A DNA stretch of 64,000 nt from positions 22,818 to 86,817 of the IMG/VR virus record IMGVR_UViG_3300013126_000015. The stretch is one strand, 5' to 3'. The notes under the pieces were generated by a model. The model was not told the DNA's origin. It made no database searches and saw nothing but the letters and a program-made list of their open reading frames with translations. The translations under genes and the position numbers were made by a program. Positions 5,664-55,516 of this stretch are shown here, in pieces (the stretch's first letter is position 1; each line of letters begins with the position of its first letter). This DNA is from a virus (taxonomy: Duplodnaviria; Heunggongvirae; Uroviricota; Caudoviricetes).

Positions 5664-6332
5664 TTAAAGGCTAGACCAGCTCGATCTTAAAAAAATAATA
5701 TGATTGTATAATGGATGATTAACTGATTCAGGTAATAACTTATCTGATTTTAATATATTATCTAATTTCCATAATGGTCTTAAATTAGAATAATGATTTA
5801 ATAATAGCAATTCATCATAATTATTGGCAAAAGATAATGGCACTATATGATCTATATCCCATAAGTTTCTATTATCCCATGTCATATTATATAAAAACAA
5901 TGATTCGATATGAAGTTTAAACGTATTATAGTCACACCCTAATATATTAGTGGTTAATGATAATTTAGTATAACCTGAACGCTTAATAGCTTTTTTAATC
6001 ATTCCTCTAATACTGGATTTTAATTTTAATAATGTTTCATCCTTTTTCTGTGTTGGTTTTTTATATTTAATACTGATACATTGTTTGCACCATGATTTAT
6101 ATCCTGTCTTAGTTGAGTTATCAGGATGAAAATCCTCAACAGAACGTACCACGTTGCATTTTGAGCATTGTTTGTGTGATATGGCATCATGTATAAGGGA
6201 TTGTCTAAAATCTTTGTCATACGCTTTACAGCATGCCTTACATGATGATTTATACCCGTCTTTAGTTTCTTTGCTTCGATAGTAGTCTGATAATGATTTA
6301 TCAATCAAACATTTTTTACATTGCTTTATCAT
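5664..6332 (-). CDS. HNH homing endonuclease (Mob-like) with two N-terminal CxxC...CxxC zinc-finger modules
   Basis: DIDHIVP HNH motif; GGAG SD; opposite orientation within early + strand cluster. Confidence 0.7.
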   Translation of the reverse strand: MIKQCKKCLIDKSLSDYYRSKETKDGYKSSCKACCKAYDKDFRQSLIHDAISHKQCSKCNVVRSVEDFHPDNSTKTGYKSWCKQCISIKYKKPTQKKDETLLKLKSSIRGMIKKAIKRSGYTKLSLTTNILGCDYNTFKLHIESLFLYNMTWDNRNLWDIDHIVPLSFANNYDELLLLNHYSNLRPLWKLDNILKSDKLLPESVNHPLYNHIIFLRSSWSSL

Positions 6333-20880: not shown

Positions 20881-22325
20881 AATGCTTCCTGTTCCTTATT
20901 TTTTATAACCAGTGCAATGGTGTTTAATGATATTTCTGGTGTCATTAATGCGTCATATGCCATTTTTCGTTTTTCAACAGGAACTTCGGTATCTATTGAA
21001 AAATACATATCAACTAATATTTTTCTAATTTCTTGTTCTGATAGACCATTAGTATTGATATTTTTAGATTGTAATAGATCCAATGCCCCTTTATTCTCAA
21101 ATTTAAATTTGATGGTATTAGTCATATATTTTAGATTTCTATGATCTTTTTCATATGCTATATTACAGATTTCTTCTGTTCTAAATTCAGTAGGAATTAA
21201 TCCCAAGAATTCTGTTGGCGATTTAATATTTGTTGCAAATTGAAGATATAGGTTATAATCTTTTAATTCGTCTGGAATATAATGTAATGGATTATTTTCT
21301 CTATATACTATCACAAATGGTTTTGTTAAATGTTCTAGCCATTTTCTATATTTAAGTCTGTTTATATCAGGCGTAATTTCAGATTGAGGTATATATTCCC
21401 ATACATCTGGGTTATTATGGGAAATGTCTTTATAAAAATCCAATGACTTTCCATGTATGGCTTTTAACGCTGGTGCAAAATTTTTCACTCCTATTCTTAA
21501 TATAGGATCAGGAATATCATTGATAACATCAGGGTTATATCTGAATAAGCTCATTATATATATTGCACAATATCCATTTTCTTTCGTTAGCATTAATGCT
21601 TTTTCAATTTGTCTATCACGATTTTTTATATTGTTATGCATATTAGCATTATCTAAAAAACTCATTGCACTTTTATACTTTTCTTTTGAGCTGCTAATAT
21701 CTGTTAAGTGTTTATTAATGATAGTTTGCTTAATTTGTTGAGCAGATAGTTTAGTAGCAGCAGTGAATTGTTGCTCTGACATTGAGTTATCTTGTTGATC
21801 AAATATTTCAATTTGTTCAATATCCTGATGAATGGCTAATGCCCACATAGTAGAAGATGGCCACGTAGTAGAAGATGCCATATCATTAGTGGGCTTTTTC
21901 TGTAAGCAGTATACCAATATTACACTTCTATCATAAAAGTATTCTTCAAAATAACTTTGTGTTGGTTTTGTTGTACACCAGCTTGACTCTTTACCATGAA
22001 AACATGATGCATCTTTATCTAATGGTATTACTATCAACCATTCATCATTTTCTTCTAAAGTAATGGATTGTCCTTTAGCTTTCTTACGTTTTATGTTTGT
22101 TTTGGTTTGTCCAGGATCAAATTCATCGACAAATGATTTAAATTCATCAAATGGCTGTTTACCCCAATAATCAATATTTTTTTGATTAATATCGGTTATT
22201 TGTTTTTTATCTACTAACTGTTTAAATTTGTTAATATACTGAGTAACTATAGTTTCATCATTTTTTTGTGAAAACTTTGATTTTACTTCTTTATATCCTT
22301 CTAATATAAATTCTTTTGCTCTCAT
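20877..22325 (-). CDS. putative internal protein with CTS (MRAKEFILE), 482 aa
   Basis: N-terminal 9 aa and upstream DNA conserved with 20245 and 15181 genes. Confidence 0.45.
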   Translation of the reverse strand: MRAKEFILEGYKEVKSKFSQKNDETIVTQYINKFKQLVDKKQITDINQKNIDYWGKQPFDEFKSFVDEFDPGQTKTNIKRKKAKGQSITLEENDEWLIVIPLDKDASCFHGKESSWCTTKPTQSYFEEYFYDRSVILVYCLQKKPTNDMASSTTWPSSTMWALAIHQDIEQIEIFDQQDNSMSEQQFTAATKLSAQQIKQTIINKHLTDISSSKEKYKSAMSFLDNANMHNNIKNRDRQIEKALMLTKENGYCAIYIMSLFRYNPDVINDIPDPILRIGVKNFAPALKAIHGKSLDFYKDISHNNPDVWEYIPQSEITPDINRLKYRKWLEHLTKPFVIVYRENNPLHYIPDELKDYNLYLQFATNIKSPTEFLGLIPTEFRTEEICNIAYEKDHRNLKYMTNTIKFKFENKGALDLLQSKNINTNGLSEQEIRKILVDMYFSIDTEVPVEKRKMAYDALMTPEISLNTIALVIKNKEQEAL

Positions 22326-23020
22326 TATTTTTCAAACCTTGTGGTAATTGGGTCAATTAATACTGCTTGCCCATTTTTTCTTCTCATGATATTATTAAAG
22401 TGCATATCAGGTTCAAATTGATTATTTCTGAATAATGGCTCTAATATTCTTAATGCTTGGGAAAATTGTTTATTTGTAGTTGAATGTCGAATTTTATTTC
22501 TGGTATTATCATCAAAAAATGCTTTCGAAAATTTAACATGGGCTGGGAATTTTCCACTAGGATCAGTCGAGTTGACAATATCCATTATTCCTAGATTATT
22601 ACACAATAATTCTACACCATTATTTGGATAGTCAAATAATCGTTCCATTACAATTAATAATTGATATTTTGCCTTTGATTGTTCTGGTTCCAAAAAGAAA
22701 TCATGTTGTTGTTCAAACCATTCCATATCATCATATGAAAATTTACTTATATCATATAATTTGAATTTAAGGATTTTTGGAAAGAATTGGTTTTCTGGAT
22801 GATTATGGCATACTCTTAAAAATTGATATGCTGGATCTGATGGACCACTTATTGCAACAAATTTAAGGATGATATTCGGGTTATTTTGAACAGCATATGC
22901 TATAGCTTGAATTCCATTTCCAAGATATGATAATTGTGGTTTATTAATTACACCAGATAATGGTTTTTTTGATGTGGGTATTTCTATTTTCTTTTCTAAG
23001 ATGAGTTCATGAATTTTCAT
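22325..23020 (-). CDS. kinase-like paralog with CTS-like N-terminus (MKIHELILE); degenerate catalytic motif
   Basis: C-terminus ...NGQAVLIDP paralogous to 23024 gene. Confidence 0.4.
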   Translation of the reverse strand: MKIHELILEKKIEIPTSKKPLSGVINKPQLSYLGNGIQAIAYAVQNNPNIILKFVAISGPSDPAYQFLRVCHNHPENQFFPKILKFKLYDISKFSYDDMEWFEQQHDFFLEPEQSKAKYQLLIVMERLFDYPNNGVELLCNNLGIMDIVNSTDPSGKFPAHVKFSKAFFDDNTRNKIRHSTTNKQFSQALRILEPLFRNNQFEPDMHFNNIMRRKNGQAVLIDPITTRFEK

Positions 23021-23023
23021 ATA

Positions 23024-23650
23024 TTAAACCATTGGGTCGATAACAACAAGGTCGCCATTTTCACGTTGCATAATGTTTCCGCGATGTAGGTCTAACACAT
23101 GGGATGGATATGTATTCATCAAGTCAACCATTAATTCAAATATTTTTGGATAATCATGGCGTAATGTTTGGATTCTGGACGGATCATTGTTCATAAACCA
23201 TTCTATATCACTTTTATCACCTATCGATGATATGATGCCAACTAACGAATTGTATTGGTCATTGCGCGAAATTCTATGTAATTTTTCAATTCTAACAACA
23301 AAAGTATTGTCGTTGATTTTAATGATATTGCCCTTAAACTTTGGAATTAAAGGATTATTTTGATGTTGTCTTGCATATTGTATGTAATCAAAATACGCTT
23401 TATCATGTGTGAATATTTTGAACACCCATGGGTAGTTAGGATGTTCAAATGCTGTTCCACCTTGCCCCGGTGAACCAACAGCATTAAATCCATTATCTAC
23501 CATATACTTTTGAAATTGTATTAATCGAGATATTCTATTATTAACCCCAGACAAATCCCCATGGAAAATTTCTTGGGATTTTTTGTAATGGTCGTTTTGT
23601 TTGTATCCAGTAAGTTCACGAATATGCATCTTGTATTTATGCTTATTCAT
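23024..23650 (-). CDS. protein kinase-like fold protein (APH/ChoK-like HxDLHRGNI ... VVIDP)
   Basis: catalytic-loop-like DLHRGNIM and IDP motif. Confidence 0.4.
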   Translation of the reverse strand: MNKHKYKMHIRELTGYKQNDHYKKSQEIFHGDLSGVNNRISRLIQFQKYMVDNGFNAVGSPGQGGTAFEHPNYPWVFKIFTHDKAYFDYIQYARQHQNNPLIPKFKGNIIKINDNTFVVRIEKLHRISRNDQYNSLVGIISSIGDKSDIEWFMNNDPSRIQTLRHDYPKIFELMVDLMNTYPSHVLDLHRGNIMQRENGDLVVIDPMV

Positions 23651-23658
23651 GCATTATA

Positions 23659-23877
23659 TTACTTAACTCTGATTGCCTTTTTTTTCACCCACTTAAATTC
23701 TTCTTCATCAAATTTATTATCGAATAGGTTCTTTACTATTTTCGCAGATTGTTTATATTCTTGCCAAACTTTATCAGAATCGTCAATTAAGTTTCTATTT
23801 TTACTTTTGGTATAAACAAATACTTTTTTATATTTTTTAAATGAGTTTGAATTGGGTGCTAATTGATAATATAGCAT
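23659..23877 (-). CDS. hypothetical protein (72 aa)
   Basis: ORF. Confidence 0.35.
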   Translation of the reverse strand: MLYYQLAPNSNSFKKYKKVFVYTKSKNRNLIDDSDKVWQEYKQSAKIVKNLFDNKFDEEEFKWVKKKAIRVK

Positions 23878-23878
23878 T

Positions 23879-24187
23879 CTACCCTTTGAATATTTTTTTT
23901 AATATCTTACGGTTGTTTGTGACATTGTGTTGACCAATATCAACGGCTCTCAATTTAATCCACCTGAATTCTTTAATATCTTCATCAGATATTTTACCAG
24001 TTTCTCCGGTTCGATTTTTAATAAGAAATACTTCTCCAGAAATATTGTTTTCTGCCCACACACGGTCACTTGATAATATTACTTTATACATTACCTTTTC
24101 CAATCGTACTACTGGTGGGTAATCCGATATATACGGATTAATTACAGCATAAATGGTCCAGTTGTTATCTAGTAAATTAATGTCCAT
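23879..24187 (-). CDS. hypothetical protein (102 aa)
   Basis: ORF. Confidence 0.4.
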   Translation of the reverse strand: MDINLLDNNWTIYAVINPYISDYPPVVRLEKVMYKVILSSDRVWAENNISGEVFLIKNRTGETGKISDEDIKEFRWIKLRAVDIGQHNVTNNRKILKKIFKG

Positions 24188-25064
24188 ATTTTTCTATTAT
24201 AGATTTGATGTCATTAATAATATTTTGATTTACATCAATTGAAATGGCGCTAGAAATAGAACCATAGTGCATTTCCAATGATTCAAATAATAATTTCTTA
24301 ATTGTATTTTCGTCTGGCGCATACCGCAAGGTTGATTCATGATACAATTTATCTAAATATTTTTCTTTTTCTGCAAACCATTCTTCATTTTTTTCAATTG
24401 GCCATTCACCATTTCTTACTGAACGTAGTAATGGTCCGTTGCATTCAAGATCTAAATCATGATGCTCCAATATCTGTTCACACTCAAGTCCAAGACGTAA
24501 AATATGATATAAAAACTTCGTATCATACCCAACTCTATCTATTGTTTCTTGCCGTTTTTTATTTGATCTATTAGCTCCATTTTTAAATTTAGATATTTGT
24601 GAAAACATGTATCCACGGAATTTATGGAATGAACCTTTATGTAGGAATAGTTTTCTATTTGTTCTAATATGCTCGTATATTCCAGTAGAATGTAGTACAC
24701 ATCGTCTAGGCAAAAACAGAACGTCAACCATATTTGGATTATTTTCCATTGCCAATTGAAAGAATTTAACAATATTATAGATTGTTAAATCTATTTCTTT
24801 ACGATGCTCTTTTAGTTCAATATGGTGTTGTTGAAATACATCAAATCGTTGTTGCTGAGAACCAAATCCTAAAATTTCACCGGCAAGATGCGGGAAAATA
24901 ATTTCTTTTGGTGGAATACAGAATCCTACAATATCCATATCAGATGCATCATCAGATGCTGCATATGCAATAGAGCCTGTCATCCCTTCAAACATGGTGT
25001 TATCAGGTAACCATTTTGGTGGAGTAATTAGATTTTTTTGTGAAAGAATTTTTGAATATTGCAT
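24177..25064 (-). CDS. Pol-beta superfamily nucleotidyltransferase (GS-x10-DMD motif) with C-terminal helical domain
   Basis: MTGSIAYAASDDASDMDIVGF and downstream VDVLF carboxylate. Confidence 0.45.
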   Translation of the reverse strand: MQYSKILSQKNLITPPKWLPDNTMFEGMTGSIAYAASDDASDMDIVGFCIPPKEIIFPHLAGEILGFGSQQQRFDVFQQHHIELKEHRKEIDLTIYNIVKFFQLAMENNPNMVDVLFLPRRCVLHSTGIYEHIRTNRKLFLHKGSFHKFRGYMFSQISKFKNGANRSNKKRQETIDRVGYDTKFLYHILRLGLECEQILEHHDLDLECNGPLLRSVRNGEWPIEKNEEWFAEKEKYLDKLYHESTLRYAPDENTIKKLLFESLEMHYGSISSAISIDVNQNIINDIKSIIEKYGH

Positions 25065-25121
25065 TAGGATTCTCCGTGACTGATATATTATTATATCATA
25101 TCACGGAGACAATGCAACTAA

Positions 25122-27626
25122 TTATTTACCGTTATCAACGATAATACTTGTTGAATATGTGATACCACCTAAAACATAACCTTTAGTTGAATCAGCATCA
25201 AAACCAATTCCGAAAGATTTAGCGGTACCTTTCCAAGATATTTTAGCACAATCAAGGACGGTTACCTGTTTAGTACCAATTGTAACAACATTACCATTTA
25301 CCGCAGTGATCTTAGCATGAATATCACTTGCTGATTTAGCACCAGCTGGTGTTACACAACTTCCAGCAGGAACTGGGGTTGGTGCTAATGTAGGCACTGG
25401 GGTGCTAGTTGGTGCAGCAGTTGGGACCGGTGTAGCAGTAGGTGCAACTGTTGGTACAGGTGTTGAAGTAGGAATTGCTGTTGGCACTGGAGTGCTAGTA
25501 GGCAATGGGGTACTTGTAGGTACAGCTGTAGGCACCGGTGTAGCTGTAGGAGCAACAGTTGGAACCGGAGTAGCAGTTGCAACGACTGGAGCTGGATCTA
25601 ACGTAATAGTAGTGGCTTCACAGAATACACCAGTTTGATCTTTAACACCAGCATATGTTGCTAATGATCCAGCAGCAAACGTACCTGTCCCGCCAACTAC
25701 GACACCAGTATAATGGACCATTGCGTTTGCCGTAGTAAATGCAGGGTTTGCACCTCTTAATTGAGTGAAACCGGTAATCGGTTCTTGAACACCAGAACAC
25801 GCAGGAGTATTAATAGTCAAATCCAATGTTTCAGATGCAGCAGTTCCAGCAGAATCGGTCAAATCAAATTGAATCGGATAAACACCACTGGTTCCTTGTG
25901 TACCATTAGTATTATCTGGAGCGGCTGGTGTGCCGTACAATTGAATACCATCAAATAACAAACCATTTGGAAGTGGTAAACTAACTGCATTAATAGCAAT
26001 GGTATAAGGAGCGATGCCACCAGTTACACTAATCGGTGTATTAGGCATTGCAACACCTTCAGTCAACACTGGAAGACCTAGAGTAGTAAATGCTAATGCT
26101 GGAACAGGAACAACTACTGGAGCTGGTTGACCATTAGCTAACAATACTTGAACTGTATAAGCTTTAGTAGAAACATTACCATCAGTATCAGTTACATTGA
26201 TAGAAAAGTCATATTTACCAGGAACAGTTGGAGTACCTTCAACAATACCACTATCCAACCCAACAGTCAACCCATCAGGAACTTGACCAGTTGTAGTGAT
26301 TTTATATGGAGAATTACCACCATAAACTGTAGATAATGGAGCCATTTTAGTGTTAACTTTAATATCAGCAATTGCTTCAGCTTGAGTCAATGGCATAACG
26401 TCATTGAAACCAACCATGTTTTCAGAGATAAAGTCACCTACAACAACTACAGCAGAACAATCATAAGAATAACTATCACCTTGCGTATCAGTAATAGTTA
26501 CTGCATTTAATGATGCCGCACCATGTTTACCATCTGGACCAACAGTATCACACATTTGTTCATGTGTTTCACCATCAAATGACCCAGTTGTAGCTGAACC
26601 AGTTGCAGCATTTACGCCAGATGTTAGAGCAGGATCACCATTACCAAATCTGAAGTAGGTATATTTGCGAGTAATAACTTCATCATTAGCTACTTTTTCA
26701 GCAGCACCTACATGTTCTTCTTTAGGTTGTGGTTTACAGACTTTTGGATCTGGATCAACGCAAGCTTTAGCTTTAGGTGGCTTTTGAATCAAATACCATT
26801 CAGATTCAACTTGATTAGGTTCACCATTTTGCCAATCAGGAAGACCATCACCATTTTTATCTTCATTAACTAATGCTTTAACCAATTGGTCAGCACCACC
26901 AGCAACTTTTTTACCATGTACTGACGTTTTTTCAACTCTCAACCAAACAGGTTCACCCCATTGAGCAGGAGCTGGTTCAACTTTTTCTTTAGGAGCTTGC
27001 TGAACAGGGACTACGTTAACTACCGCAGGTTGAAGAGGAATCGGTTGAGCTGGGGCTGGTTGTACTGGAGGTGGAGCTACGAACGTTGGAATTGCCATAG
27101 TAACACCAGGAGCAGATCCACCCAAACTAGCACCACGAACAAGACCAGAGCCTTGTTGATTCAACCAATAAAATCCAACGGATTTAGGAGTACCCATTGC
27201 ACCAGTTGCGAAATGTTCACATCCTGTATCAGCAGCAGATACACAAGAATGTCCACCGGTTGACCATGTTGAAGTGTCTGCAGCAATCGTACCACGAGGA
27301 CGAACACCATTTGCATCAGGTTTCAACTCGTAATGTACGATAGCATGAATTACACCAGCAGCATCAGTATATTCACCCACAGTTGGTGCACCATAACGTG
27401 CTGAATACCATGTATAGCCAATTTGAGCAGAATGCAAACCTTCAAAGTCTTGCTCAAAACCGTATGCCATTTGACCTGTATCATTCGCGACATCAAAGTT
27501 ACCAACAGATACGGCTTGTGCACCAATACCTACACCACATTTACCAAATCCATCACATATAGTGAATGCTTCTGCAGTCGTAATAAAAAATCCCAATAAT
27601 GCCGGGATGTACTTAATATATTTCAT
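25122..27626 (-). CDS. secreted protein with signal peptide, Ig-like (He_PIG-type) domains and ~70-aa Pro/Thr-rich linker; track start 27638, ATG 27626 preferred
   Basis: MKYIKYIPALLGFFITTAEA signal; TPVPT repeats; GGAGA SD before ATG 27626; GC-richer codon usage. Confidence 0.55.
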   Translation of the reverse strand: MKYIKYIPALLGFFITTAEAFTICDGFGKCGVGIGAQAVSVGNFDVANDTGQMAYGFEQDFEGLHSAQIGYTWYSARYGAPTVGEYTDAAGVIHAIVHYELKPDANGVRPRGTIAADTSTWSTGGHSCVSAADTGCEHFATGAMGTPKSVGFYWLNQQGSGLVRGASLGGSAPGVTMAIPTFVAPPPVQPAPAQPIPLQPAVVNVVPVQQAPKEKVEPAPAQWGEPVWLRVEKTSVHGKKVAGGADQLVKALVNEDKNGDGLPDWQNGEPNQVESEWYLIQKPPKAKACVDPDPKVCKPQPKEEHVGAAEKVANDEVITRKYTYFRFGNGDPALTSGVNAATGSATTGSFDGETHEQMCDTVGPDGKHGAASLNAVTITDTQGDSYSYDCSAVVVVGDFISENMVGFNDVMPLTQAEAIADIKVNTKMAPLSTVYGGNSPYKITTTGQVPDGLTVGLDSGIVEGTPTVPGKYDFSINVTDTDGNVSTKAYTVQVLLANGQPAPVVVPVPALAFTTLGLPVLTEGVAMPNTPISVTGGIAPYTIAINAVSLPLPNGLLFDGIQLYGTPAAPDNTNGTQGTSGVYPIQFDLTDSAGTAASETLDLTINTPACSGVQEPITGFTQLRGANPAFTTANAMVHYTGVVVGGTGTFAAGSLATYAGVKDQTGVFCEATTITLDPAPVVATATPVPTVAPTATPVPTAVPTSTPLPTSTPVPTAIPTSTPVPTVAPTATPVPTAAPTSTPVPTLAPTPVPAGSCVTPAGAKSASDIHAKITAVNGNVVTIGTKQVTVLDCAKISWKGTAKSFGIGFDADSTKGYVLGGITYSTSIIVDNGK

Positions 27627-27736
27627 TAATTTCTCCATAAAAATTTAAATTGTCAGCGTCAATATTATCAGACACTAATATATATTTATGGTAATGCTAC
27701 CATAAATTCTGTGTGTTATATCAAAGATTTATAATT

Positions 27737-28687: not shown

Positions 28688-29761
28688 TTAGGTACCAGCT
28701 CTTGTACGATTCAATTTACCAATAGTAAATCCTAAATTAATATAATAATGTAATTTAATATCATCATTGTATGAAATTCTTTTTTCTGAAATACCATCTG
28801 TCAAATATATTTTTTTAATTCTACCTTTCACCCAACCGCTGGATTCATATTTTTCCAGATCATCTATTGAAATTCGTTTTTCTGTGTGTTCATTGTATAC
28901 ATATATTTTACCAGATGTTGGATTACCACGAGTCCATCCATCATTAATATATGCATTTACTTCTTCAAGTGGAACCCGTTTATATGAATTTTCACGTTTT
29001 ATATAAATCAAATCAGCTACAGTACTCGACAATTCATACCCACAATCCAAATACTCAGCAAGTTTAATAGATGGAACTTTTTTTAGTTTACCGTCCTTTT
29101 TAATAACTTTATAATCTTGCTGATTATGGTGGTATTCCCATCCATCAGAGATGTATTGTTCCAGCAGGGATTTTTTTATATATGATAGTTTACCATTTTT
29201 CTTTACAAAAATACAATCTTTAGCTGAAGAATTTCCTAGTATCCATCCACTAGCTAAATAAGAATCTACGTGATCTGGAAGAACCATTTTATTTTGGATG
29301 CCATCTGTAATATATACTCTCTTAATTCCTTTTTGTTGCCATCCTTGCTCAAGATAATAATCTACCATTTTAGGATTCACCATTTTAAATGTATGACCCT
29401 TGGATATTATAATATACCCACTTACGTCTGGAACATGTCCGCAGTTGCAATTCAAACACAAAGGAGCGTCAAAAACCTTTTTTATTTGTAATATATTTTT
29501 TTCGATTTGTATAGCAGATTCTGCATCACTTAAATAAAATAAAACTGATCTCTGATATGGAGTCCCACATTCTTTTAATTTAAGAGCTAGTTTACCAGAA
29601 CAAAAATATCGATCATTATCTAAGCATGAAGTTGAATGTTTTCCGATATAATAGTGACCTGAATCAAATTCAATATAGTACACAGTATGGTACCTTCCAT
29701 CTGTTCCAACTGTTTGGTTCGTTTGAACATTTTTAAATTTGTTAATTATATAATTTTTCAT
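28688..29761 (-). CDS. GIY-YIG homing endonuclease (Seg-like) with six C-terminal ~30-aa repeats (I(Y/F)V..DG..KRI....L..Y..SGW..G)
   Basis: YYIEF...GHYYIGK GIY-YIG motif; tandem repeats visible in translation. Confidence 0.65.
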   Translation of the reverse strand: MKNYIINKFKNVQTNQTVGTDGRYHTVYYIEFDSGHYYIGKHSTSCLDNDRYFCSGKLALKLKECGTPYQRSVLFYLSDAESAIQIEKNILQIKKVFDAPLCLNCNCGHVPDVSGYIIISKGHTFKMVNPKMVDYYLEQGWQQKGIKRVYITDGIQNKMVLPDHVDSYLASGWILGNSSAKDCIFVKKNGKLSYIKKSLLEQYISDGWEYHHNQQDYKVIKKDGKLKKVPSIKLAEYLDCGYELSSTVADLIYIKRENSYKRVPLEEVNAYINDGWTRGNPTSGKIYVYNEHTEKRISIDDLEKYESSGWVKGRIKKIYLTDGISEKRISYNDDIKLHYYINLGFTIGKLNRTRAGT

Positions 29762-29821: not shown

Positions 29822-31282
29822 CTATGCTCTAGCTCGTGATTTTACTTCGTCCCACGACTGCCGGTATTCTCTAAACCCGTCTTTGTACCACAATCTCCAT
29901 CCAGCCGCTGGAGTCAAAAAATTAAAGATATTTCCTTCTGATATAGCGTCATATACTTCAATGTCACCATTTTCATTCTCTCTGCAGCGAACTAATCCTT
30001 TTAATGATTTTTTTCCAGAATCAGTAATAGGATCTTTAATAGTAGCAACCCATTTTCCATATCTAAAATTTGCAGTTGATTTGAAACTGAAACCAAAATC
30101 ATCACGCGAACCAAAATGGGTGATACCTGCTCCAGAACCTAAGCAAAAGTTGTCCATAGCAAAGCCAGCATCAACCCACCCTTGACAAATTTCTCGAACT
30201 GTATTTACTTTTACACCATCTCCCTGTATTACACCAGTTGATGGGTGTAATACCTTGTACCCTTTATTATTAATAGTTACCCCAAAGGTAGCTTCCCAAT
30301 CTTTGCCTACTAATCCTGGTTCGATTGTCATATCTCCGGTATCTGGTCTAGCAATCATGCGCCCACCAGATGCCAAAATTCTATCTTTTAATCTAGTACC
30401 AAGATATTCTCTCACAAATCTTCTTGAATCATATGTATCAATCACTGCTGACATAAATGGTAAACCAATGCCGCGTTTATGTCTTTCCACTGCCTCAAAT
30501 AATCTATCTACTACCATAACAGCTGCACCGAAATCATCTTTATTTTCCGCATCTGAATGAGCACATGATACACTATGTTCACTCGCTTCAATAGATGAAG
30601 TTGATGGTTTATATGTTCCATACAAGCGTTTAATATACCCATTTGCTCTAATACAGTCTGACCCATCAAATAGTGCGGCATGTGCAATACCAGAGATTAC
30701 TGCTGCTTCATCTGGACTATCAGCACTTCTGTCGCCAAACTCATGCATCATGTAGTTAACATTGGTGGTGTCAGTTCCGGTAAGTTCACAGAATTCTATA
30801 AGAGTCAACCTCATTGCTCTGCAAACAGATGCAACAGTAGACATTTTCCAAATCAATGCTTGTGAAAATGTTTCAAAATAGGTTACTAACCACGCAAAAT
30901 TAGACACAGTATTAATAATACCAACTATTGGCGTTTGTGGTGCAACTATTCGGCCTTCTTCTACTCCATAAATTGCTAATGGTATTTTTCCATCAAGTTC
31001 TCGTACAATACGTTCCCATCCTTCTCTATTGAAGTGGTATCCTTGTTCAGTAACTTCAACTTCTGCTTCATCAATCATTTCCATTGTGATTCTAGTAGCT
31101 GCAAAAATTGAAGATAATAGGGTAATACCCATTGAAACAATATGGGTAGAATATGAACTTGACTTTCGTGGAACCATATTTGCATAACCATATTCGTCGC
31201 CAGTAGGTGCTTCTAGCCAGTGATTAATTTTATACCCATCTGCACACAAAATTATATTAAATGGTTTTAAATGTTCTAACAT
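29822..31282 (-). CDS. nadV: nicotinamide phosphoribosyltransferase
   Basis: full-length NAMPT-like translation; GAGGA SD. Confidence 0.75.
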   Translation of the reverse strand: MLEHLKPFNIILCADGYKINHWLEAPTGDEYGYANMVPRKSSSYSTHIVSMGITLLSSIFAATRITMEMIDEAEVEVTEQGYHFNREGWERIVRELDGKIPLAIYGVEEGRIVAPQTPIVGIINTVSNFAWLVTYFETFSQALIWKMSTVASVCRAMRLTLIEFCELTGTDTTNVNYMMHEFGDRSADSPDEAAVISGIAHAALFDGSDCIRANGYIKRLYGTYKPSTSSIEASEHSVSCAHSDAENKDDFGAAVMVVDRLFEAVERHKRGIGLPFMSAVIDTYDSRRFVREYLGTRLKDRILASGGRMIARPDTGDMTIEPGLVGKDWEATFGVTINNKGYKVLHPSTGVIQGDGVKVNTVREICQGWVDAGFAMDNFCLGSGAGITHFGSRDDFGFSFKSTANFRYGKWVATIKDPITDSGKKSLKGLVRCRENENGDIEVYDAISEGNIFNFLTPAAGWRLWYKDGFREYRQSWDEVKSRARA

Positions 31283-33054: not shown

Positions 33055-34089
33055 TCACCTGCATATTGAAACACCCCAAGTAATTATCGAAAGATGGTCC
33101 TCGAACAAATATTCCTCCATATCTAATACATCATCAATTGGAAACCACTTGGCAAATCTAGCATCATCAGATCCTTTAACTTTAGACAACGGTCCAGATG
33201 GTAATTCTATTGCATAAGCATGTGTGATAGTTCGTCCTCGCAATGATCGTGACGGTTTATCGAACACCTGCGTTCCTTTTATAGAACCTCTTAATACTGG
33301 CTCTGGTATTTTGATTTTAGTTTCTTCCCTTAACTCTCTTATAACACCATCAATCAAATATTCGGACTGGTTTACAAATCCCCCAGGAAGTGCCCATAAT
33401 CCTTTTCCAGGACTCGCTTTACGTTGCACCAATAGGACATGACCTGATTGAATCACAACAGCGTCAGTGGTCACAAAAGTGGGTGGGTATGGAGCATTGT
33501 CCCAGGATTTTTTATAACCTTGAATATGATTAAACTCATCAACCAGATTTTTATAATCATCACTTTTTGTCCACTCTCTTAAATCGTTCTGCAGTTGGGA
33601 ATCAATTAACGGTCTATCTTTCCAATTAAATATTGCTCCAGTAAATAATTGTTCCCGGACAGTGGTTGCATCAATATCAATGATATGATCGGTATTAATA
33701 AAATCCCATTGTGGGAAATAATCAATATAATAGGAAGTAGAATCTTTTTTGCAGCCCACGATACCAATTTTTGGATCGGTAATGCCACATGTTTCTTTTT
33801 TGACTATTCGTTGAACTTGTTGAATCCACTCTTGATCAACTCGGAAATCACGGATACCATGACAACTAATTCTGGATGAATCTTGTTTTGGTAGTTGATT
33901 CAGTAACATTGCAGCACGTTCATACCACTTCCACGGGTTTTTAATCGTTCGTGGTTGAAAGCTGGAGCCGAATAATACTATTACTTTATTTGAACGTTCT
34001 AATGCTGTAGTTACATTATGAACATGTGCGTGAGTTGGTGGTTGCATTCTGCCAATGTATACAATGGCATCATATTTTTGTTTTGTCAT
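33055..34089 (-). CDS. natV: bifunctional NMN adenylyltransferase / Nudix ADP-ribose pyrophosphatase
   Basis: N-terminal HxxH nucleotidyltransferase motif (PPTHAHVH) plus Nudix box (GGFVNQSEYLIDGVIRELREETK). Confidence 0.7.
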   Translation of the reverse strand: MTKQKYDAIVYIGRMQPPTHAHVHNVTTALERSNKVIVLFGSSFQPRTIKNPWKWYERAAMLLNQLPKQDSSRISCHGIRDFRVDQEWIQQVQRIVKKETCGITDPKIGIVGCKKDSTSYYIDYFPQWDFINTDHIIDIDATTVREQLFTGAIFNWKDRPLIDSQLQNDLREWTKSDDYKNLVDEFNHIQGYKKSWDNAPYPPTFVTTDAVVIQSGHVLLVQRKASPGKGLWALPGGFVNQSEYLIDGVIRELREETKIKIPEPVLRGSIKGTQVFDKPSRSLRGRTITHAYAIELPSGPLSKVKGSDDARFAKWFPIDDVLDMEEYLFEDHLSIITWGVSICR

Positions 34090-50083: not shown

Positions 50084-50319
50084 TATTTATATTTTAAATC
50101 ATAGTAATATTCAGTCGGAAACTCACCTTTTCTAATAGATCCACCATTTTTGTCCCATTTCATAATATGCTCAAATATAATACCATTTTGCAACGTCACA
50201 TATACTGTGCCATTTATATATGGTGATGAGTTATCCCATGAATGTAATTTCACAGGATACCCACACCTTGTTGTAAAAGTTGCGCTATGAAAATCAAATT
50301 CTGTTATTAATTTATTCAT
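50083..50319 (-). CDS. hypothetical protein (78 aa)
   Basis: ORF. Confidence 0.4.
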   Translation of the reverse strand: MNKLITEFDFHSATFTTRCGYPVKLHSWDNSSPYINGTVYVTLQNGIIFEHIMKWDKNGGSIRKGEFPTEYYYDLKYK

Positions 50320-50857
50320 GATGTGTTTTTTCCGGTAATGGTATATTTAACATTTCCATAATTAACGCATCCAAATTATAAACTCTACAGTTGTTAGTAT
50401 CCATTCCAACATCTTTGATTCTACCAGTTGTGTTCGTTTTGTTGCCATGCATATGCCCGTGCAGGTGCAATGACCCATGATGCTTACCATTCCAATATTC
50501 TATCGGATAATGAAACAGTACAATTTTATGTCCATGCATTTTCAGCTCTTTGTAATCATGTATCGACTCGAAACATTCTCTGAATGCTCTTTTTTCTAAT
50601 GGCGAATCATCATGATTTCCAACTATTAGGATTTTTCTGCCATTCAATCGATGCAAAAAATCAATGGTTGGGTTGATTTTACCAAAAGTAATATCACCTA
50701 GAATATAGGTTAAATCATTTGGACCTACATCTTGATTCCAATTTGTTTCGATTGTATTATTCATTTCATCCACATCTGCAAATGGTCTGCTTGTTGAGCA
50801 GAATTGCATGATTTTTTTGTGGTATATGTGGATATCCGATGTGATAAATGTGTTCAT
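50312..50857 (-). CDS. calcineurin-like metallophosphoesterase (GDxxxG, GNHD, GHxH motifs)
   Basis: ILGDITFG, IVGNHDD, GHMHG. Confidence 0.6.
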   Translation of the reverse strand: MNTFITSDIHIYHKKIMQFCSTSRPFADVDEMNNTIETNWNQDVGPNDLTYILGDITFGKINPTIDFLHRLNGRKILIVGNHDDSPLEKRAFRECFESIHDYKELKMHGHKIVLFHYPIEYWNGKHHGSLHLHGHMHGNKTNTTGRIKDVGMDTNNCRVYNLDALIMEMLNIPLPEKTHHE

Positions 50858-50858
50858 A

Positions 50859-51719
50859 TTAAGTGTCTAAAAAGTCTTGGACTATTTCCAGTCGATCTTG
50901 TTCAGAAGTTTCTAAAAATTGCTCTTTAGTAAAGTTCAAATGAATGAACTCTATCAACTCATGAAAATCTTCGTCAAATTTTTGTTTATAATTAGTTGAA
51001 AAAATTTCTTCCATTTTTTTGGTACGTGCTAAAAACTTACTTACCAAATAATAAGGTGATTTCATTTTCAACACTGTTGGTGATTCTAAATCATAAACTA
51101 ACCATCCTTCATGGTTGCATTTTTTAGTTTCTTCTACTAAATCACTGAAACGTATTTCTTTATGTTCAGGACGTTTTACATCCCACAATTTTGCCACAGA
51201 ATCCAAAAAAAGTTCAGGGTATAACTCTGAATTTAAATATTTAGTACGTGCACCAATTAAATATGCACCGAATTCTTCTGTGATTATATGTGGATCACGC
51301 TCGTCACATATTTCAAACATAAAAGTACTATTATGGTACTGCTTCAATAATGAACTCATTTTATCCAATGGTAAATTGTCTTTGGCCATTTGAACGAAAT
51401 CACTATCTAATGATCCAGTGGTAGATACCAATATTTCACCATTATACCATGATACTGCTGCAAAAAATCCATTTATTTTTCGAACAGCACGAACCATGTG
51501 GTTTCGATTAATGACTGTTCCATTTTCATGGAAATTGAATATTTTGGTGAAACCATATTGAACCACATTACCTGCAGCATCGTACACTGTTCCACGAGCA
51601 TTAACCAAGTTTGGATCTTCATCCCAACGATTGTTGTAAAAAACTTTGCGATGGTATTTATGGATTTCTAAACCATTGTCATATTTTTTTACTTTTACTA
51701 ATTCGTCATACTTGCTCAC
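50859..51719 (-). CDS. RNA ligase-family nucleotidyltransferase (Rnl2-like; KINGF motif I, FEICDE motif III, EGWLV motif IV, LKMKSP motif V)
   Basis: motifs in translation. Confidence 0.5.
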   Translation of the reverse strand: MSKYDELVKVKKYDNGLEIHKYHRKVFYNNRWDEDPNLVNARGTVYDAAGNVVQYGFTKIFNFHENGTVINRNHMVRAVRKINGFFAAVSWYNGEILVSTTGSLDSDFVQMAKDNLPLDKMSSLLKQYHNSTFMFEICDERDPHIITEEFGAYLIGARTKYLNSELYPELFLDSVAKLWDVKRPEHKEIRFSDLVEETKKCNHEGWLVYDLESPTVLKMKSPYYLVSKFLARTKKMEEIFSTNYKQKFDEDFHELIEFIHLNFTKEQFLETSEQDRLEIVQDFLDT

Positions 51720-54791: not shown

Positions 54792-54970
54792 CTTAAAATA
54801 AAGTAAGTGTAATCTCGCTGGTTATCAAATTGTATCACATCTTTTAGAATTTTGCAATGGAATTCTTTTTCGAATTCTTTAGTAGATGGTTCGGTGCCAT
54901 GTGTATTTTCATACCATTCATAGGCACTGAACACTTCATTACTTCTGAATAGTAACTCATGTTTTTTCAT
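54782..54970 (-). CDS. family II small protein (...DYTYFILRWC)
   Basis: C-terminal motif. Confidence 0.45.
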   Translation of the reverse strand: MKKHELLFRSNEVFSAYEWYENTHGTEPSTKEFEKEFHCKILKDVIQFDNQRDYTYFILRWC

Positions 54971-55266
54971 TATTCACCAAATTTTAACACAAATAATGTT
55001 CTATCCTGTTCTTTTTTAAAGTAAAAACGAAAATATCCATCCTCATCAATGCCATGATAGAATCTATCTTTAAATGATTCTTCGCACCATAAGATTGATT
55101 CTACCAATTGATCATGTGAGTCATGCATACTTGTAAAATTTGATCTTACGTAATAAATGAATGCTGTTTCGTGAGTGTTATCTAGTTGGCCAACTGATTT
55201 CACTATTACCGGAGTCCAGTCATATCTATTTCTCATTGAAAAAATCGATGCTGATGGGATTGACAT
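54970..55266 (-). CDS. family II small protein (...DRTLFVLKFGE); track ORF trimmed to internal ATG 55266
   Basis: AT-rich low-complexity N-terminal extension in track ORF is implausible. Confidence 0.4.
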   Translation of the reverse strand: MSIPSASIFSMRNRYDWTPVIVKSVGQLDNTHETAFIYYVRSNFTSMHDSHDQLVESILWCEESFKDRFYHGIDEDGYFRFYFKKEQDRTLFVLKFGE

Positions 55267-55330
55267 AGGTTGTACACCCACGATGTCATTGGCAATTGAT
55301 TGTGGTATTATCTTTCTTAATAATGGTATA

Positions 55331-55516
55331 TTAATCTCTGTCACGGTGCTCATGATGGTGATGTCGGTTATGATGCTGATTATGATGGTATTGGTATTGT
55401 GGATAATACCTTGGGTAATATACAGGTTGAACTGGGTAATAATAGCTGTCGTATCCACGGTAATTGTGGGCACATCCAACTAAAAATAATAACGATAATA
55501 CTAATAATTTATTCAT
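55331..55516 (-). CDS. His/Tyr/Pro-rich lipoprotein (61 aa; lipobox LVGC)
   Basis: MNKLLVLSLLFLVGCA then YYYPVQPVYYPRYYP...HHNRHHHHEH. Confidence 0.5.
   Translation of the reverse strand: MNKLLVLSLLFLVGCAHNYRGYDSYYYPVQPVYYPRYYPQYQYHHNQHHNRHHHHEHRDRD

What the first reader, a model, noticed from the sequence alone, without database searches (positions are those of the whole stretch)
24177..25064. Phage-encoded Pol-beta-type nucleotidyltransferase of ~295 aa (CD-NTase/SMODS-like size)
The protein has GS-x10-DMD (MTGSIAYAASDDASDMDIVGF) and a third acidic residue downstream, followed by ~150 aa of helical sequence. This is the architecture of cGAS/DncV-like cyclases, Cid1/2'-5'-OAS-like enzymes and antibiotic nucleotidyltransferases. 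In a phage it could make or sequester a signalling nucleotide, for example to interfere with CBASS or related defence, or modify nucleic acids.
Basis: partly seen in the sequence, partly recalled or inferred. Interest (0 to 1): 0.55.

Follow-up and report, generated by a model that had tools for sequence, protein, structure and literature searches.

The report
Phage RlaP RNA-end nucleotidyltransferase
[quoted passage not shown] It is an ordinary part of a large phage's RNA-repair kit, not a signalling-nucleotide cyclase.

Summary
The ORF is real: window 24177-25064, minus strand, 295 aa. It carries GS-x10-DMD and a third carboxylate, D92. All five residues are invariant in 50 homologs.

It is not CD-NTase-like. 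[quoted passage not shown] It has no SMODS, Mab-21 or PADLOC/CBASS match. A confident AlphaFold model (pLDDT 90) matches cGAS and CdnC only at TM 0.2 or less.

RlaP has already been described as the commonest RNA-end-restoring nucleotidyltransferase of jumbo phages. A 2025 preprint shows that bacterial RlaPs add 1-2 NMPs to RNA 3'-OH ends. T4 NrdC.11 is a member.

In 83 viral contigs carrying this subfamily, 31 have an RNA-repair or tRNA-end gene within 10 kb, and 23 within 2.5 kb. These genes are CCA-adding enzyme, Rnl1 or Rnl2 ligase, Pnk(p), RtcB and a metallophosphoesterase. The window itself encodes an Rnl1-like ligase next to that phosphoesterase, 26 kb away.

Verdict: a new member of a known kind, of low interest. 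The activity of this particular protein is inferred, not shown.

The parts
24177..25064 (-). RlaP-family (PF10127) nucleotidyltransferase gene, 295 aa
   Evidence: ORF. Pfam RlaP E=2.2e-17, 64 bits against a gathering cutoff of 23. phrog_388 'nucleotidyltransferase' E=5.1e-47. 1982 homologs, with the top 120 all PF10127 and about 295 aa. AF2 model pLDDT 90.4.
24789..24977 (-). Catalytic core of the NTase domain: codons for G30-S31 (24972-24977), D42-M43-D44 (24933-24941) and D92 (24789-24791)
   Evidence: Read directly from the sequence. All five residues are invariant in 50 homologs. They lie on the strands expected for a Pol-beta fold in the model. They align with GS...DVD...D of T4 NrdC.11.
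24180..24773 (-). C-terminal helical region (residues 98-295) with subfamily-invariant motifs ENNPN (107-111), FLHKG (140-144), K183 and R190. The last four long helices (182-293) form a four-helix bundle.
25058..25118 (-). Tentative regulatory element: a 61-nt hairpin in the 57-nt spacer upstream of the gene. It pairs the Shine-Dalgarno GGAG and the AUG, and has an extended -10-like TGATATAAT (25090-25098) in its apical part.
   Evidence: RNA fold -30.3 kcal/mol, z=-7.6, with 0 of 200 shuffles as stable. The hairpin is kept in the 75%-identical relatives L005 and L006 with two G-C to A-U double changes in the stem. The same TGATATAAT with a TTGACT -35 lies upstream of the NAMPT gene. Function is inferred only.
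23879..24187 (-). 102-aa ORF overlapping the RlaP stop by 11 nt, probably co-transcribed. It belongs to a small paralogous family of unknown function.
   Evidence: ORF list. No Pfam or PHROG match. BLASTP similarity to 23659-23877 and to four small ORFs downstream of RlaP in L005. It is not conserved next to RlaP in more distant phages.
50859..51719 (-). Rnl1-like ATP-dependent RNA ligase, the inferred downstream partner that seals 3'-OH/5'-P ends
   Evidence: phrog_562 'RNA ligase and tail fiber protein attachment catalyst' E=5e-43. Ligase motifs KINGF, FEICDE, EGWLVY and LKMKSPYY were read from the translation. It is 45-46% identical to annotated RNA ligases in 617 phage records. There is no Pfam hit at E<=0.01.
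50312..50857 (-). Calcineurin-like metallophosphoesterase adjacent to the ligase, the inferred 3'-phosphate / 2',3'-cyclic phosphate end-healing enzyme
   Evidence: phrog_547 E=1.4e-50. PDB 1xm7 (aq_1665) E=3.6e-13. Homologs of this protein lie within 0-2.1 kb of the RlaP gene, downstream or overlapping its 3' end, in 10 of 83 viral loci. The homolog in L049 hits Metallophos/Metallophos_2.

Best explanation

Proposed mechanism:
- The two metal ions held by D42, D44 and D92 activate the 3'-OH of a broken RNA, most plausibly the 5' half of a host or phage tRNA cut by a defence ribonuclease.
- The enzyme transfers one or two NMPs from NTPs without a template. This replaces nucleotides that 'excising' anticodon nucleases such as RloC remove.
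- The extended 3'-OH end is then joined to the 5'-phosphate end by the phage's ATP-dependent RNA ligase (window 50859-51719).
- The adjacent metallophosphoesterase (50312-50857) first clears 3'-phosphate or cyclic-phosphate ends. A 5'-kinase is needed but was not found in this window.

Shown here: family membership, an intact active site, the fold, and genomic linkage of this subfamily to RNA-repair and tRNA-end enzymes.

Inferred: the activity of this particular protein, its substrate, and its role in counter-defence.
For: Family membership:
- Pfam RlaP 64 bits against a cutoff of 23, and phrog_388 at 5e-47.
- All top-120 database homologs are PF10127.
- T4 NrdC.11, named as an RlaP in PMC12776372, also hits PF10127. 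It aligns with the target over the catalytic core at E=7e-10.

Active site: G30, S31, D42, D44 and D92 are invariant, and many basic residues are conserved.

Fold:
- The confident model has an NTase domain plus a helical domain.
- The best viral structural matches are phage 'nucleotidyltransferases', with TM up to 0.87.

Biochemistry of the family (PMC12776372):
- Pseudomonas RlaPs add 1-2 NMPs to RNA 3'-OH ends.
- They do not act on DNA or protein, they prefer Mn2+, and they prefer the broken-tRNA 5' half.
- They restore aminoacylation of a tRNA that lacks one nucleotide.

Comparative genomics in the literature (PMC7824862): RlaP is the most prevalent RNA-end-restoring NTase of jumbo phages, and its distribution mirrors that of RNA ligases.

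Linkage measured here on orthologs 44-62% identical to the target:
- 31 of 83 viral loci have a CCA-adding enzyme (14), metallophosphoesterase (13), Rnl2 (11), Pnk/Pnkp (5), Rnl1 (4) or RtcB (2) within 10 kb.
- 23 loci have one within 2.5 kb, mostly on the same strand.
- Examples are L059 (RlaP-Pnkp-Rnl2), L033 and L039 (RlaP-Pnk-MPE), L074 and L084 (RlaP-MPE...Rnl2), and L071 and L067 (CCA enzyme directly upstream). Pfam confirmed these identities.
- In the complete Rhizobacter chromosome (L109), an RNA_ligase gene ends 11 nt upstream of the RlaP gene.

The window itself carries an Rnl1-like ligase next to the same metallophosphoesterase family.
Against: - No assay exists for this protein or for any phage RlaP. 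The only biochemistry is a single unreviewed preprint on two bacterial enzymes from another RlaP cluster.
- In this window the gene is not operonic with the ligase, which is 26 kb away. Its immediate neighbours are unrelated: an Ig-domain protein, small unknown ORFs and gp0.7-like kinases.
- No polynucleotide 5'-kinase, CCA-adding enzyme or tRNA gene was found in the 64 kb.
- 52 of 83 viral loci and 75 of 80 bacterial loci showed no detectable repair gene within 10 kb. The searches used single sequences, and no whole-genome background rate could be computed.
- The Pfam match covers only residues 22-203, so the C-terminal 90 residues are subfamily-specific.
- The PfRlaP crystal structure is not in the PDB copy, so no direct superposition was possible.
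Confidence: 0.72

Rival explanations
1. The protein would be a CD-NTase/cGAS/DncV/OAS-like enzyme that synthesises a cyclic or 2'-5' oligonucleotide signal, or binds one, to subvert CBASS-type defence.
For: It has the same superfamily motif, GS...DxD...D, and a similar overall size. cGAS and CdnC appear far down the Foldseek list.
Confidence: 0.02
2. The protein would be a small-molecule (antibiotic-type) nucleotidyltransferase related to ANT(4')/KNTase, LinB or AAD(9). It would adenylylate a hydroxyl group of a metabolite or host-made compound.
Against: The matches are fold-level only: TM 0.28-0.36, rmsd 12-16 A, 10-15% identity. There is no Pfam match to any ANT, KNTase or Lnu family. Bacterial RlaPs were tested only on macromolecules, where RNA was the sole substrate. 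The genomic linkage is to RNA enzymes.
Confidence: 0.03
3. The protein would be a nucleic-acid NTase with a role other than repair. It might tail host RNAs without a template to mark them for decay or block their use. Or it might synthesise short oligonucleotides, as the Hailong HalB enzyme does, acting as a take-over or decoy function.
Against: RlaPs stop after 1-2 additions and need an RNA acceptor. Orthologs are repeatedly adjacent to ligases, Pnkp and CCA-adding enzyme, which fits repair rather than decay. The similarity to HalB is only 10-13% identity.
Confidence: 0.13
4. The protein would be a protein-nucleotidylating enzyme, that is an AMPylase like the MNT antitoxins of MNT-HEPN modules, GlnE or DrrA.
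Against: Bacterial RlaPs did not label E. coli proteins. There is no Rx4-6H motif within the C-terminal bundle, residues 182-293 (sequence). No HEPN partner gene is adjacent. Four-helix bundles match many unrelated folds, for example CheA P1 and designed proteins.
Confidence: 0.03

Closest known systems
PfRlaP / PaRlaP (Pseudomonas fluorescens / aeruginosa RlaP, PF10127; Carruthers, Fatma & Huang, bioRxiv 2025, PMC12776372)
   Same: Same Pfam family. Same three catalytic aspartates. Same two-domain plan, with an N-terminal NTase and a C-terminal helical domain forming a cleft. Both are linked genomically to RNA ligases.
   Different: The Pseudomonas enzymes sit inside rtcB-rlaP-rtcA operons, next to a 3'-phosphate ligase, and belong to SSN cluster 1a. 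The phage protein stands alone in this window, and the phage's ligase is a 5'-phosphate Rnl1 type. Only residues 22-203 match the family profile. No direct sequence or structure comparison with PfRlaP was possible here.
Phage T4 NrdC.11 (NP_049709.1)
   Same: It is a phage-encoded PF10127 member. It aligns over GS...DxD...D and the following helices at 26% identity, E=7e-10. T4 also carries its ligases and Pnkp elsewhere in the genome, not adjacent.
   Different: It is 336 aa rather than 295 aa. It lacks the subfamily motifs ENNPN and FLHKG. It falls in a different SSN cluster. Its function is equally untested.
Caulobacter jumbo phages CcrSC gp113 / RB23 (closest GenBank phage relatives)
   Same: 50-52% identity over the full length, 295 aa, PF10127.
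   Different: They are annotated only as 'hypothetical protein'. The host is high-GC, whereas this window is 29-39% GC. The neighbours are different.
CCA-adding enzyme (class II tRNA nucleotidyltransferase)
   Same: It works alike: a template-independent Pol-beta-superfamily enzyme that restores missing nucleotides at an RNA 3' end. It is encoded directly upstream of this RlaP subfamily in about 10 viral loci.
   Different: It is a different family (PolyA_pol head + RNA-binding + HD domains), it builds a defined CCA sequence, and it acts at the acceptor end. The target has no PolyA_pol match.
CD-NTases (cGAS/DncV/CdnC; SMODS, Mab-21)
   Same: Only the Pol-beta superfamily catalytic signature and a comparable length.
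   Different: There is no profile match and TM is <=0.22. CD-NTases cyclise two or three NTPs into a free signal and are encoded beside effectors. RlaPs extend an RNA acceptor.
Closest solved structures: 3c18 (Exiguobacterium NTase-like protein), Hailong HalB (9dbh), ANT(4')/KNTase (6p01, 1kny)
   Different: 8-13% identity and rmsd 6-15 A. 3c18 has no assigned function, HalB makes oligodeoxyadenylate, and ANT(4') modifies aminoglycosides. No sequence-level relation was detectable.

Membership tests
RlaP (Pfam PF10127, RNA ligase-associating Pol-beta) | Match to the family profile above the curated gathering score | tested here: met
   64 bits, E=2.2e-17, against a cutoff of 23 bits, over residues 22-203. 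Precomputed PF10127 on all top-120 homologs. T4 NrdC.11, a named member, scores 46.6 bits.
RlaP (Pfam PF10127, RNA ligase-associating Pol-beta) | Pol-beta catalytic signature: G[GS], DxD and a third strictly conserved Asp | tested here: met
   G30, S31, D42, D44 and D92 are invariant in 50 homologs and lie on the expected strands of the model.
RlaP (Pfam PF10127, RNA ligase-associating Pol-beta) | N-terminal NTase domain plus C-terminal helical domain forming a cleft, as in the PfRlaP crystal structure | tested here: inconclusive
   The model shows an NTase domain (about residues 20-97) and a helical region (98-293). The PfRlaP coordinates are not in the PDB copy searched, so no superposition could be made.
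RlaP (Pfam PF10127, RNA ligase-associating Pol-beta) | Genomic association with RNA ligases / RNA-repair genes | tested here: met
   Subfamily level: 31 of 83 viral loci have a repair or tRNA-end gene within 10 kb, and 23 within 2.5 kb. Several are adjacent and on the same strand. A ligase is adjacent in the Rhizobacter chromosome. In this window the ligase and phosphoesterase are present but 26 kb away, not operonic.
RlaP (Pfam PF10127, RNA ligase-associating Pol-beta) | Adds 1-2 NMPs to RNA 3'-OH ends, prefers Mn2+, does not act on DNA or protein | not testable with these tools
   Known only for PfRlaP and PaRlaP (PMC12776372). It needs an enzyme assay.
CD-NTase (SMODS PF18144 / Mab-21; CBASS cyclase) | Profile match to SMODS, Mab-21 or a CBASS cyclase model | tested here: not met
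   No such Pfam family at E<=1. No PADLOC family at E<=1.
CD-NTase (SMODS PF18144 / Mab-21; CBASS cyclase) | cGAS/DncV-type fold | tested here: not met
CD-NTase (SMODS PF18144 / Mab-21; CBASS cyclase) | Encoded beside an effector or Cap genes (or, for a phage counter-measure, beside sponge or nuclease genes) | tested here: not met
   The neighbours are an Ig-domain protein, small unknown ORFs and gp0.7-like kinases. Ortholog neighbourhoods are rich in RNA-repair genes.
Aminoglycoside/lincosamide nucleotidyltransferases (ANT(4')/KNTase, LinB, AAD(9)) | Sequence-profile membership | tested here: not met
   No Pfam hit other than RlaP and a sub-threshold DUF507. No PDB sequence hit with the single sequence or with the profile.
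Aminoglycoside/lincosamide nucleotidyltransferases (ANT(4')/KNTase, LinB, AAD(9)) | Close structural match including the antibiotic-binding pocket | tested here: inconclusive
MNT-HEPN type module (minimal NTase with HEPN RNase domain) | HEPN four-helix bundle carrying the Rx4-6H motif | tested here: not met

The most novel reading that the evidence does not exclude
The most novel reading not excluded is that this jumbo-phage RlaP subfamily is not a mere repair accessory. It has its own invariant motifs (ENNPN, FLHKG) and a divergent C-terminal domain. It could be a take-over or decoy enzyme that tails host RNAs, or that makes short oligonucleotides in the manner of Hailong HalB, its second-best structural match. 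A milder version is that it is the dedicated phage antidote to nucleotide-excising anticodon nucleases. That role has been proposed for RlaP but never shown for any phage.
Probability: 0.08. Interest if true: 0.6.

Novelty: new member of a known kind. Interest (0 to 1): 0.18.

Why it matters
The result corrects a tempting mis-annotation. The GS...DxD...D motif plus a helical tail is shared by the whole Pol-beta superfamily, so it does not indicate a cyclic-nucleotide enzyme.

The gene adds one more example of the RNA-repair toolkit that large phages carry against host tRNA-cleaving defences: a ligase, an end-healing phosphoesterase and RlaP.

Its practical value is modest. Phage RlaPs, T4 NrdC.11 included, are still untested biochemically. 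The tight linkage seen here between this subfamily and CCA-adding enzyme, Rnl2, Pnkp and metallophosphoesterase genes gives ready-made gene sets for reconstituting a complete phage tRNA-repair pathway that can cope with nucleotide loss.

Tried and rejected
- Megablast of 10 kb around the gene against 50,697 phage records found no match, so the phage itself is not close to any deposited genome.
- NCBIfam gave only a meaningless sub-threshold hit.
- PADLOC gave nothing.
- PDB sequence searches with the single protein and with the 50-sequence profile gave nothing relevant. The PfRlaP structure is evidently not in that copy.
- The AFDB50 fold library was unavailable.
- A look-up of the exact protein's own contig failed.
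- The original RlaP paper (Burroughs & Aravind 2016, NAR 44:8525) is not held. It is cited only through PMC12776372 and PMC7824862.
- A Walker-A regex and phmmer with three Pnk/Pnkp queries found no polynucleotide kinase in the window. No CCA-adding enzyme and no tRNA genes were found either.
- The idea that the overlapping downstream 102-aa ORF is a conserved RlaP partner was rejected. It is conserved only in the closest relative and belongs to a locally amplified small-protein family.
- The idea that the NAMPT/NMNAT genes are functionally tied to RlaP was rejected. The synteny holds in L005, L012 and a few other loci but not in most.
- The upstream hairpin is absent in more distant relatives L001, L002 and L007, so it is a lineage-specific feature. 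The TGATATAAT motif is not over-represented in the window overall: 7 observed against 5.3 expected.
- The promoter and terminator consensus scan found nothing above shuffle expectation.
Full report
**Observation**

The ORF is exactly where the finding says, 24177-25064, on the minus strand. It is 295 aa with an ATG start. Residues 27-47 read MTGSIAYAASDDASDMDIVGF, that is G30-S31, ten residues, then D42-M-D44. The third carboxylate is D92, in KEIDLTIY.

A 50-sequence alignment of database homologs, 54-82% identical to the window protein, keeps G30, S31, D42, D44 and D92 invariant. It also shows further invariant motifs: ENNPN at 107-111, FLHKG at 140-144, K183 and R190.

An AlphaFold2 model built on that alignment is confident (pLDDT 90.4, pTM 0.84). 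It puts the three motifs on the strands expected for a Pol-beta fold, followed by an almost wholly helical region at residues 98-293.

**What it is**

- Pfam assigns the protein to PF10127, RlaP ('RNA repair pathway DNA polymerase beta family'), at E=2.2e-17 and 64 bits against a gathering score of 23.
- PHROGs gives phrog_388 'nucleotidyltransferase' at 5.1e-47.
- PADLOC, which contains CBASS cyclase models, gives nothing. No SMODS, Mab-21, OAS or ANT family appears in Pfam even at E<=1.
- The large protein database returns 1982 relatives. The top 120 are all about 295 aa and all PF10127, and many sit on contigs of 200-360 kb.
- In GenBank phages, 330 records hold a relative. The closest are 'hypothetical proteins' of Caulobacter jumbo phages CcrSC and RB23 at 50-52% identity. 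Next come 'nucleotidyltransferases' of Bacillus, Mycobacterium and Gordonia phages at 25-31%.
- T4 NrdC.11, which the literature names as an RlaP, also hits PF10127. It aligns with the target across the catalytic core at 26% identity, E=7e-10.

**Fold comparison**

- Foldseek against the PDB gives only fold-level matches, with TM 0.28-0.47 and 10-15% identity. They are to ANT(4')/KNTase, the uncharacterised 3c18, Hailong HalB, LinB and AAD(9). cGAS, CdnC and CdnD reach probability 0.09-0.20 and TM 0.14-0.22.
- Against predicted viral structures, the best matches are phage 'nucleotidyltransferases', with TM up to 0.87, and Bacillus phage G gp218 at TM 0.73.
- The PfRlaP crystal structure is not in the PDB copy, so it could not be superposed.

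**What is known about the family**

Burroughs and Aravind named RlaP for its operonic association with RNA ligases. That paper is cited here through PMC12776372 and PMC7824862, because the original is not held.

Iyer et al. 2021 state that RlaP is the most prevalent NTase used by jumbo phages to restore missing bases at RNA ends. They also state that its distribution mirrors that of RNA ligases, and that it is predicted to replace nucleotides removed by nucleases such as RloC before ligation.

A December 2025 preprint reports the following for two Pseudomonas RlaPs:
- They add one or two NMPs to RNA 3'-OH ends.
- They do not act on DNA or protein.
- They prefer Mn2+ and accept all NTPs and dATP.
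- They prefer the 5' half of a broken tRNA.
- They raise the aminoacylation of a ligated tRNA that had lost one nucleotide.

The same preprint places T4 NrdC.11 in the family.

**Context in the window**

The window is 29-39% GC and has no tRNA genes. It has no near-identical relative among deposited phages.

Around the gene lie:
- an 838-aa Ig-domain (He_PIG) protein upstream;
- a homing-endonuclease-like gene;
- NAMPT;
- an SPFH protein;
- an NMNAT/Nudix protein;
- downstream, small unknown ORFs and two tandem T7 gp0.7-like kinases.

None of these is an RNA-repair gene.

Twenty-six kb away, however, the window encodes an Rnl1-like RNA ligase at 50859-51719. It matches phrog_562 at 5e-43, ligase motifs I, III, IV and V are readable, and it is 45-46% identical to annotated phage RNA ligases. 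Immediately next to it is a calcineurin-like metallophosphoesterase at 50312-50857, which matches phrog_547 at 1.4e-50 and PDB 1xm7 at 3.6e-13. No polynucleotide kinase or CCA-adding enzyme was found in the 64 kb. The window is only part of a larger genome: the identical protein is recorded on a 102-kb contig.

**Context of orthologs**

A scan of IMG/VR with the subfamily alignment returned 80 loci, 44-62% identical to the target, on contigs of up to 561 kb. Three loci from exact-protein look-ups bring the set to 83 viral loci.

I called ORFs within +-10 kb and searched them with phmmer. The queries were the window's ligase and phosphoesterase, T4 RnlA, RnlB and PseT, E. coli RtcB and RtcA, and representatives picked from the loci themselves. 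The results:
- 31 of 83 loci carry at least one RNA-repair or tRNA-end gene.
- By type: CCA-adding enzyme 14, metallophosphoesterase 13, Rnl2 11, Pnk/Pnkp 5, Rnl1 4, RtcB 2.
- In 23 loci the nearest such gene is within 2.5 kb, nearly always on the same strand.

An unsupervised clustering of all neighbours within 4 kb ranked these three families at the top:
- a 445-aa protein, a median of 48 nt upstream;
- an Rnl2-type ligase;
- the phosphoesterase.

Pfam confirmed the identities:
- PolyA_pol head + RNA-binding + HD, that is a CCA-adding enzyme;
- RNA_ligase + OB fold;
- AAA_33 + HAD_PNKP;
- RNA_lig_T4_1 + T4_Rnl1_C;
- Metallophos.

Clear examples are L059 (RlaP-Pnkp-Rnl2), L033 and L039 (RlaP-Pnk-phosphoesterase, with Rnl1 8 kb upstream), and L074 and L084 (RlaP overlapping the phosphoesterase, with Rnl2 3.5 kb on).

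The same subfamily also occurs in bacterial assemblies, including complete chromosomes. In Rhizobacter CP050901 an RNA_ligase gene ends 11 nt before it.

Two caveats apply. Several loci are near-duplicates. And no whole-genome background rate could be computed from 20-kb windows, so the enrichment is qualitative.

**Mechanism**

The best-supported reading has these steps:
1. The protein uses D42, D44 and D92 with two metal ions to add one or two untemplated NMPs to the 3'-OH of broken RNA, most plausibly tRNA.
2. This restores nucleotides lost to excising ribonucleases.
3. The phosphoesterase clears 3'-phosphate or cyclic-phosphate ends beforehand.
4. A kinase, not found in this window, phosphorylates the 5' end.
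5. The Rnl1-like ligase seals the break.

An RlaP product ends in 3'-OH. This suits a 5'-phosphate ligase such as the one in this window and avoids the incompatibility with RtcB that the preprint discusses.

Shown here: family membership, an intact active site, the fold, and genomic linkage. Inferred: the activity and substrate of this protein and its counter-defence role. I put the family assignment at about 0.95 and the full functional statement at about 0.7.

**Rival explanations**

- The CD-NTase/OAS reading fails every test that could be applied: profiles, fold and neighbours.
- The antibiotic-NTase reading rests only on fold-level similarity.
- A non-repair nucleic-acid role, such as RNA tailing or HalB-like oligonucleotide synthesis, cannot be excluded. 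It is disfavoured by the neighbours and by the 1-2 nt limit seen in vitro.
- Protein AMPylation is disfavoured by the preprint's negative protein-labelling result. It is also disfavoured by the absence of an Rx4-6H motif in the C-terminal four-helix bundle.

**Regulatory detail (tentative)**

The 57-nt spacer before the start codon folds into a 61-nt hairpin at 25058-25118 on the minus strand. Its energy is -30.3 kcal/mol with z=-7.6. It pairs both the GGAG Shine-Dalgarno sequence and the AUG. Its apical part contains TGATATAAT, an extended -10 consensus.

The hairpin is retained in the 75%-identical relatives L005 and L006, with two G-C to A-U double substitutions. In L005 it is preceded by a perfect TTGACA at a 16-nt spacing. 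The same -10 element, with a TTGACT -35, precedes the NAMPT gene.

A transcript starting at this promoter would lack the 5' arm and so be translatable. Read-through transcripts from upstream would have the ribosome-binding site masked. From my own knowledge, this arrangement is known for T4 genes such as e, soc and 49. It is absent in more distant relatives and is not needed for the main conclusion.

**Novelty and verdict**

This is a new sequence member of a family that was described in 2016, surveyed in jumbo phages in 2021 and characterised biochemically in 2025. A specialist would not be surprised by it. Interest is low, at about 0.18.

The CD-NTase/CBASS interpretation is not supported.

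Noticed in passing
window 22325-23020 and 23024-23650 (-): Two tandem, diverged genes for T7 gp0.7-like protein kinases (phrog_15752, E=1.4e-5 and 2.6e-12; both end in an HRGN/HFNN...IDP catalytic-loop-like motif). Neither has a Pfam hit. They are absent at this position in the syntenic relative L005, which has one homolog elsewhere.
   Followed up: partly
window 29822-31282 (-) and 33055-34089 (-): These are NAMPT (phrog_448, E=6e-110) and a bifunctional NMNAT/Nudix protein (phrog_395; CTP_transf_like + NUDIX). Together they form a NadV/NatV-type NAD+ salvage pair, a kind reported, from my own knowledge, to counter NAD-depleting defences. The pair is syntenic with the RlaP gene in L005 and L012 but not in most loci.
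   Followed up: partly
window 25122-27638 (-) and 28688-29761 (-): An 838-aa protein has a hydrophobic N-terminus, a He_PIG Ig domain and long Pro/Thr/Ala-rich repeats. Its GC content is 0.37-0.39 against about 0.30 in its surroundings. With a homing-endonuclease-like gene, it fills the space between NAMPT and RlaP, where the relative L005 has a NADAR gene and small ORFs. This looks like a lineage-specific insertion.
   Followed up: no
window 25058-25118 (-): A very stable hairpin (-30.3 kcal/mol, z=-7.6) masks the SD and AUG of the RlaP gene, with an extended -10-like TGATATAAT in its apex. It is conserved with compensatory changes in L005 and L006. It may be a promoter-in-hairpin translational switch of the type known in T4.
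   Followed up: partly
window 23659-23877 and 23879-24187 (-); L005 10885-12268: A locally amplified family of 70-125-aa proteins lies directly downstream of RlaP, with two copies here and four in L005. They share a C-terminal motif (...D/E-E/D-hydrophobic-K-E/D-F-x-W-hydrophobic-K-hydrophobic...AV). The first copy overlaps the RlaP stop by 11 nt. They have no family match.
   Followed up: partly
window 50312-51719 (-): An Rnl1-like RNA ligase lacks the T4 Rnl1 C-terminal tRNA-binding domain (286 aa against 374 aa, matching profile positions 29-277 of 377). It is adjacent to a calcineurin-like metallophosphoesterase. This is a two-gene heal-and-seal unit with no kinase nearby.
   Followed up: partly
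L043, L054, L062, L067, L071, L075, L076, L077, L080, L090 (directly upstream of the RlaP match): A class II CCA-adding enzyme (PolyA_pol head + RNA-binding + HD) is the most frequent immediate upstream neighbour of this RlaP subfamily in viral contigs. That makes two different RNA 3'-end nucleotide adders encoded side by side.
   Followed up: partly
L002 9342-9728 and L014 8803-9090: A 128-aa RF-1/peptidyl-tRNA-hydrolase-domain protein (PF00472, with the GGQ motif visible) lies just upstream of RlaP on 359-kb and 210-kb phage contigs. This is a possible link between ribosome rescue and RNA repair.
   Followed up: no
L089-L168 (e.g. L093, L101, L109, L141, L165): The 'phage-type' RlaP subfamily (44-55% identical) also occurs in bacterial assemblies. 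These include complete Latescibacterota and Rhizobacter chromosomes and the isolates Zavarzinella formosa and Zooshikella harenae. Only 5 of 80 loci showed a detectable repair gene nearby. Whether these copies sit in prophages, in mis-binned phage contigs (L090 is the same contig as viral L043) or are true cellular genes was not resolved.
   Followed up: partly
window 54970-55479 (-): A 169-aa ORF with a TTG start matches only the first 60 or so positions of the T4 major capsid protein Gp23 profile (E=7e-13). This hints at a distant T4-like lineage, or at a capsid-protein N-terminal fragment or paralog.
   Followed up: no
window 24639-24656 (-), residues 137-142: A conserved R137-x4-H142 (RKLFLHKG) formally fits the HEPN Rx4-6H pattern. 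But it lies outside the C-terminal four-helix bundle, and its histidine is not conserved in T4 NrdC.11. It is more likely a subfamily-specific NTP- or RNA-binding motif.
   Followed up: partly
window 5664-6332 (-): A 222-aa protein combines a Lar-like restriction-alleviation match at the N-terminus (phrog_5558, E=2e-17) with an endonuclease VII match (phrog_1035, E=5e-29). This is an unusual fusion that was not examined further.
   Followed up: no
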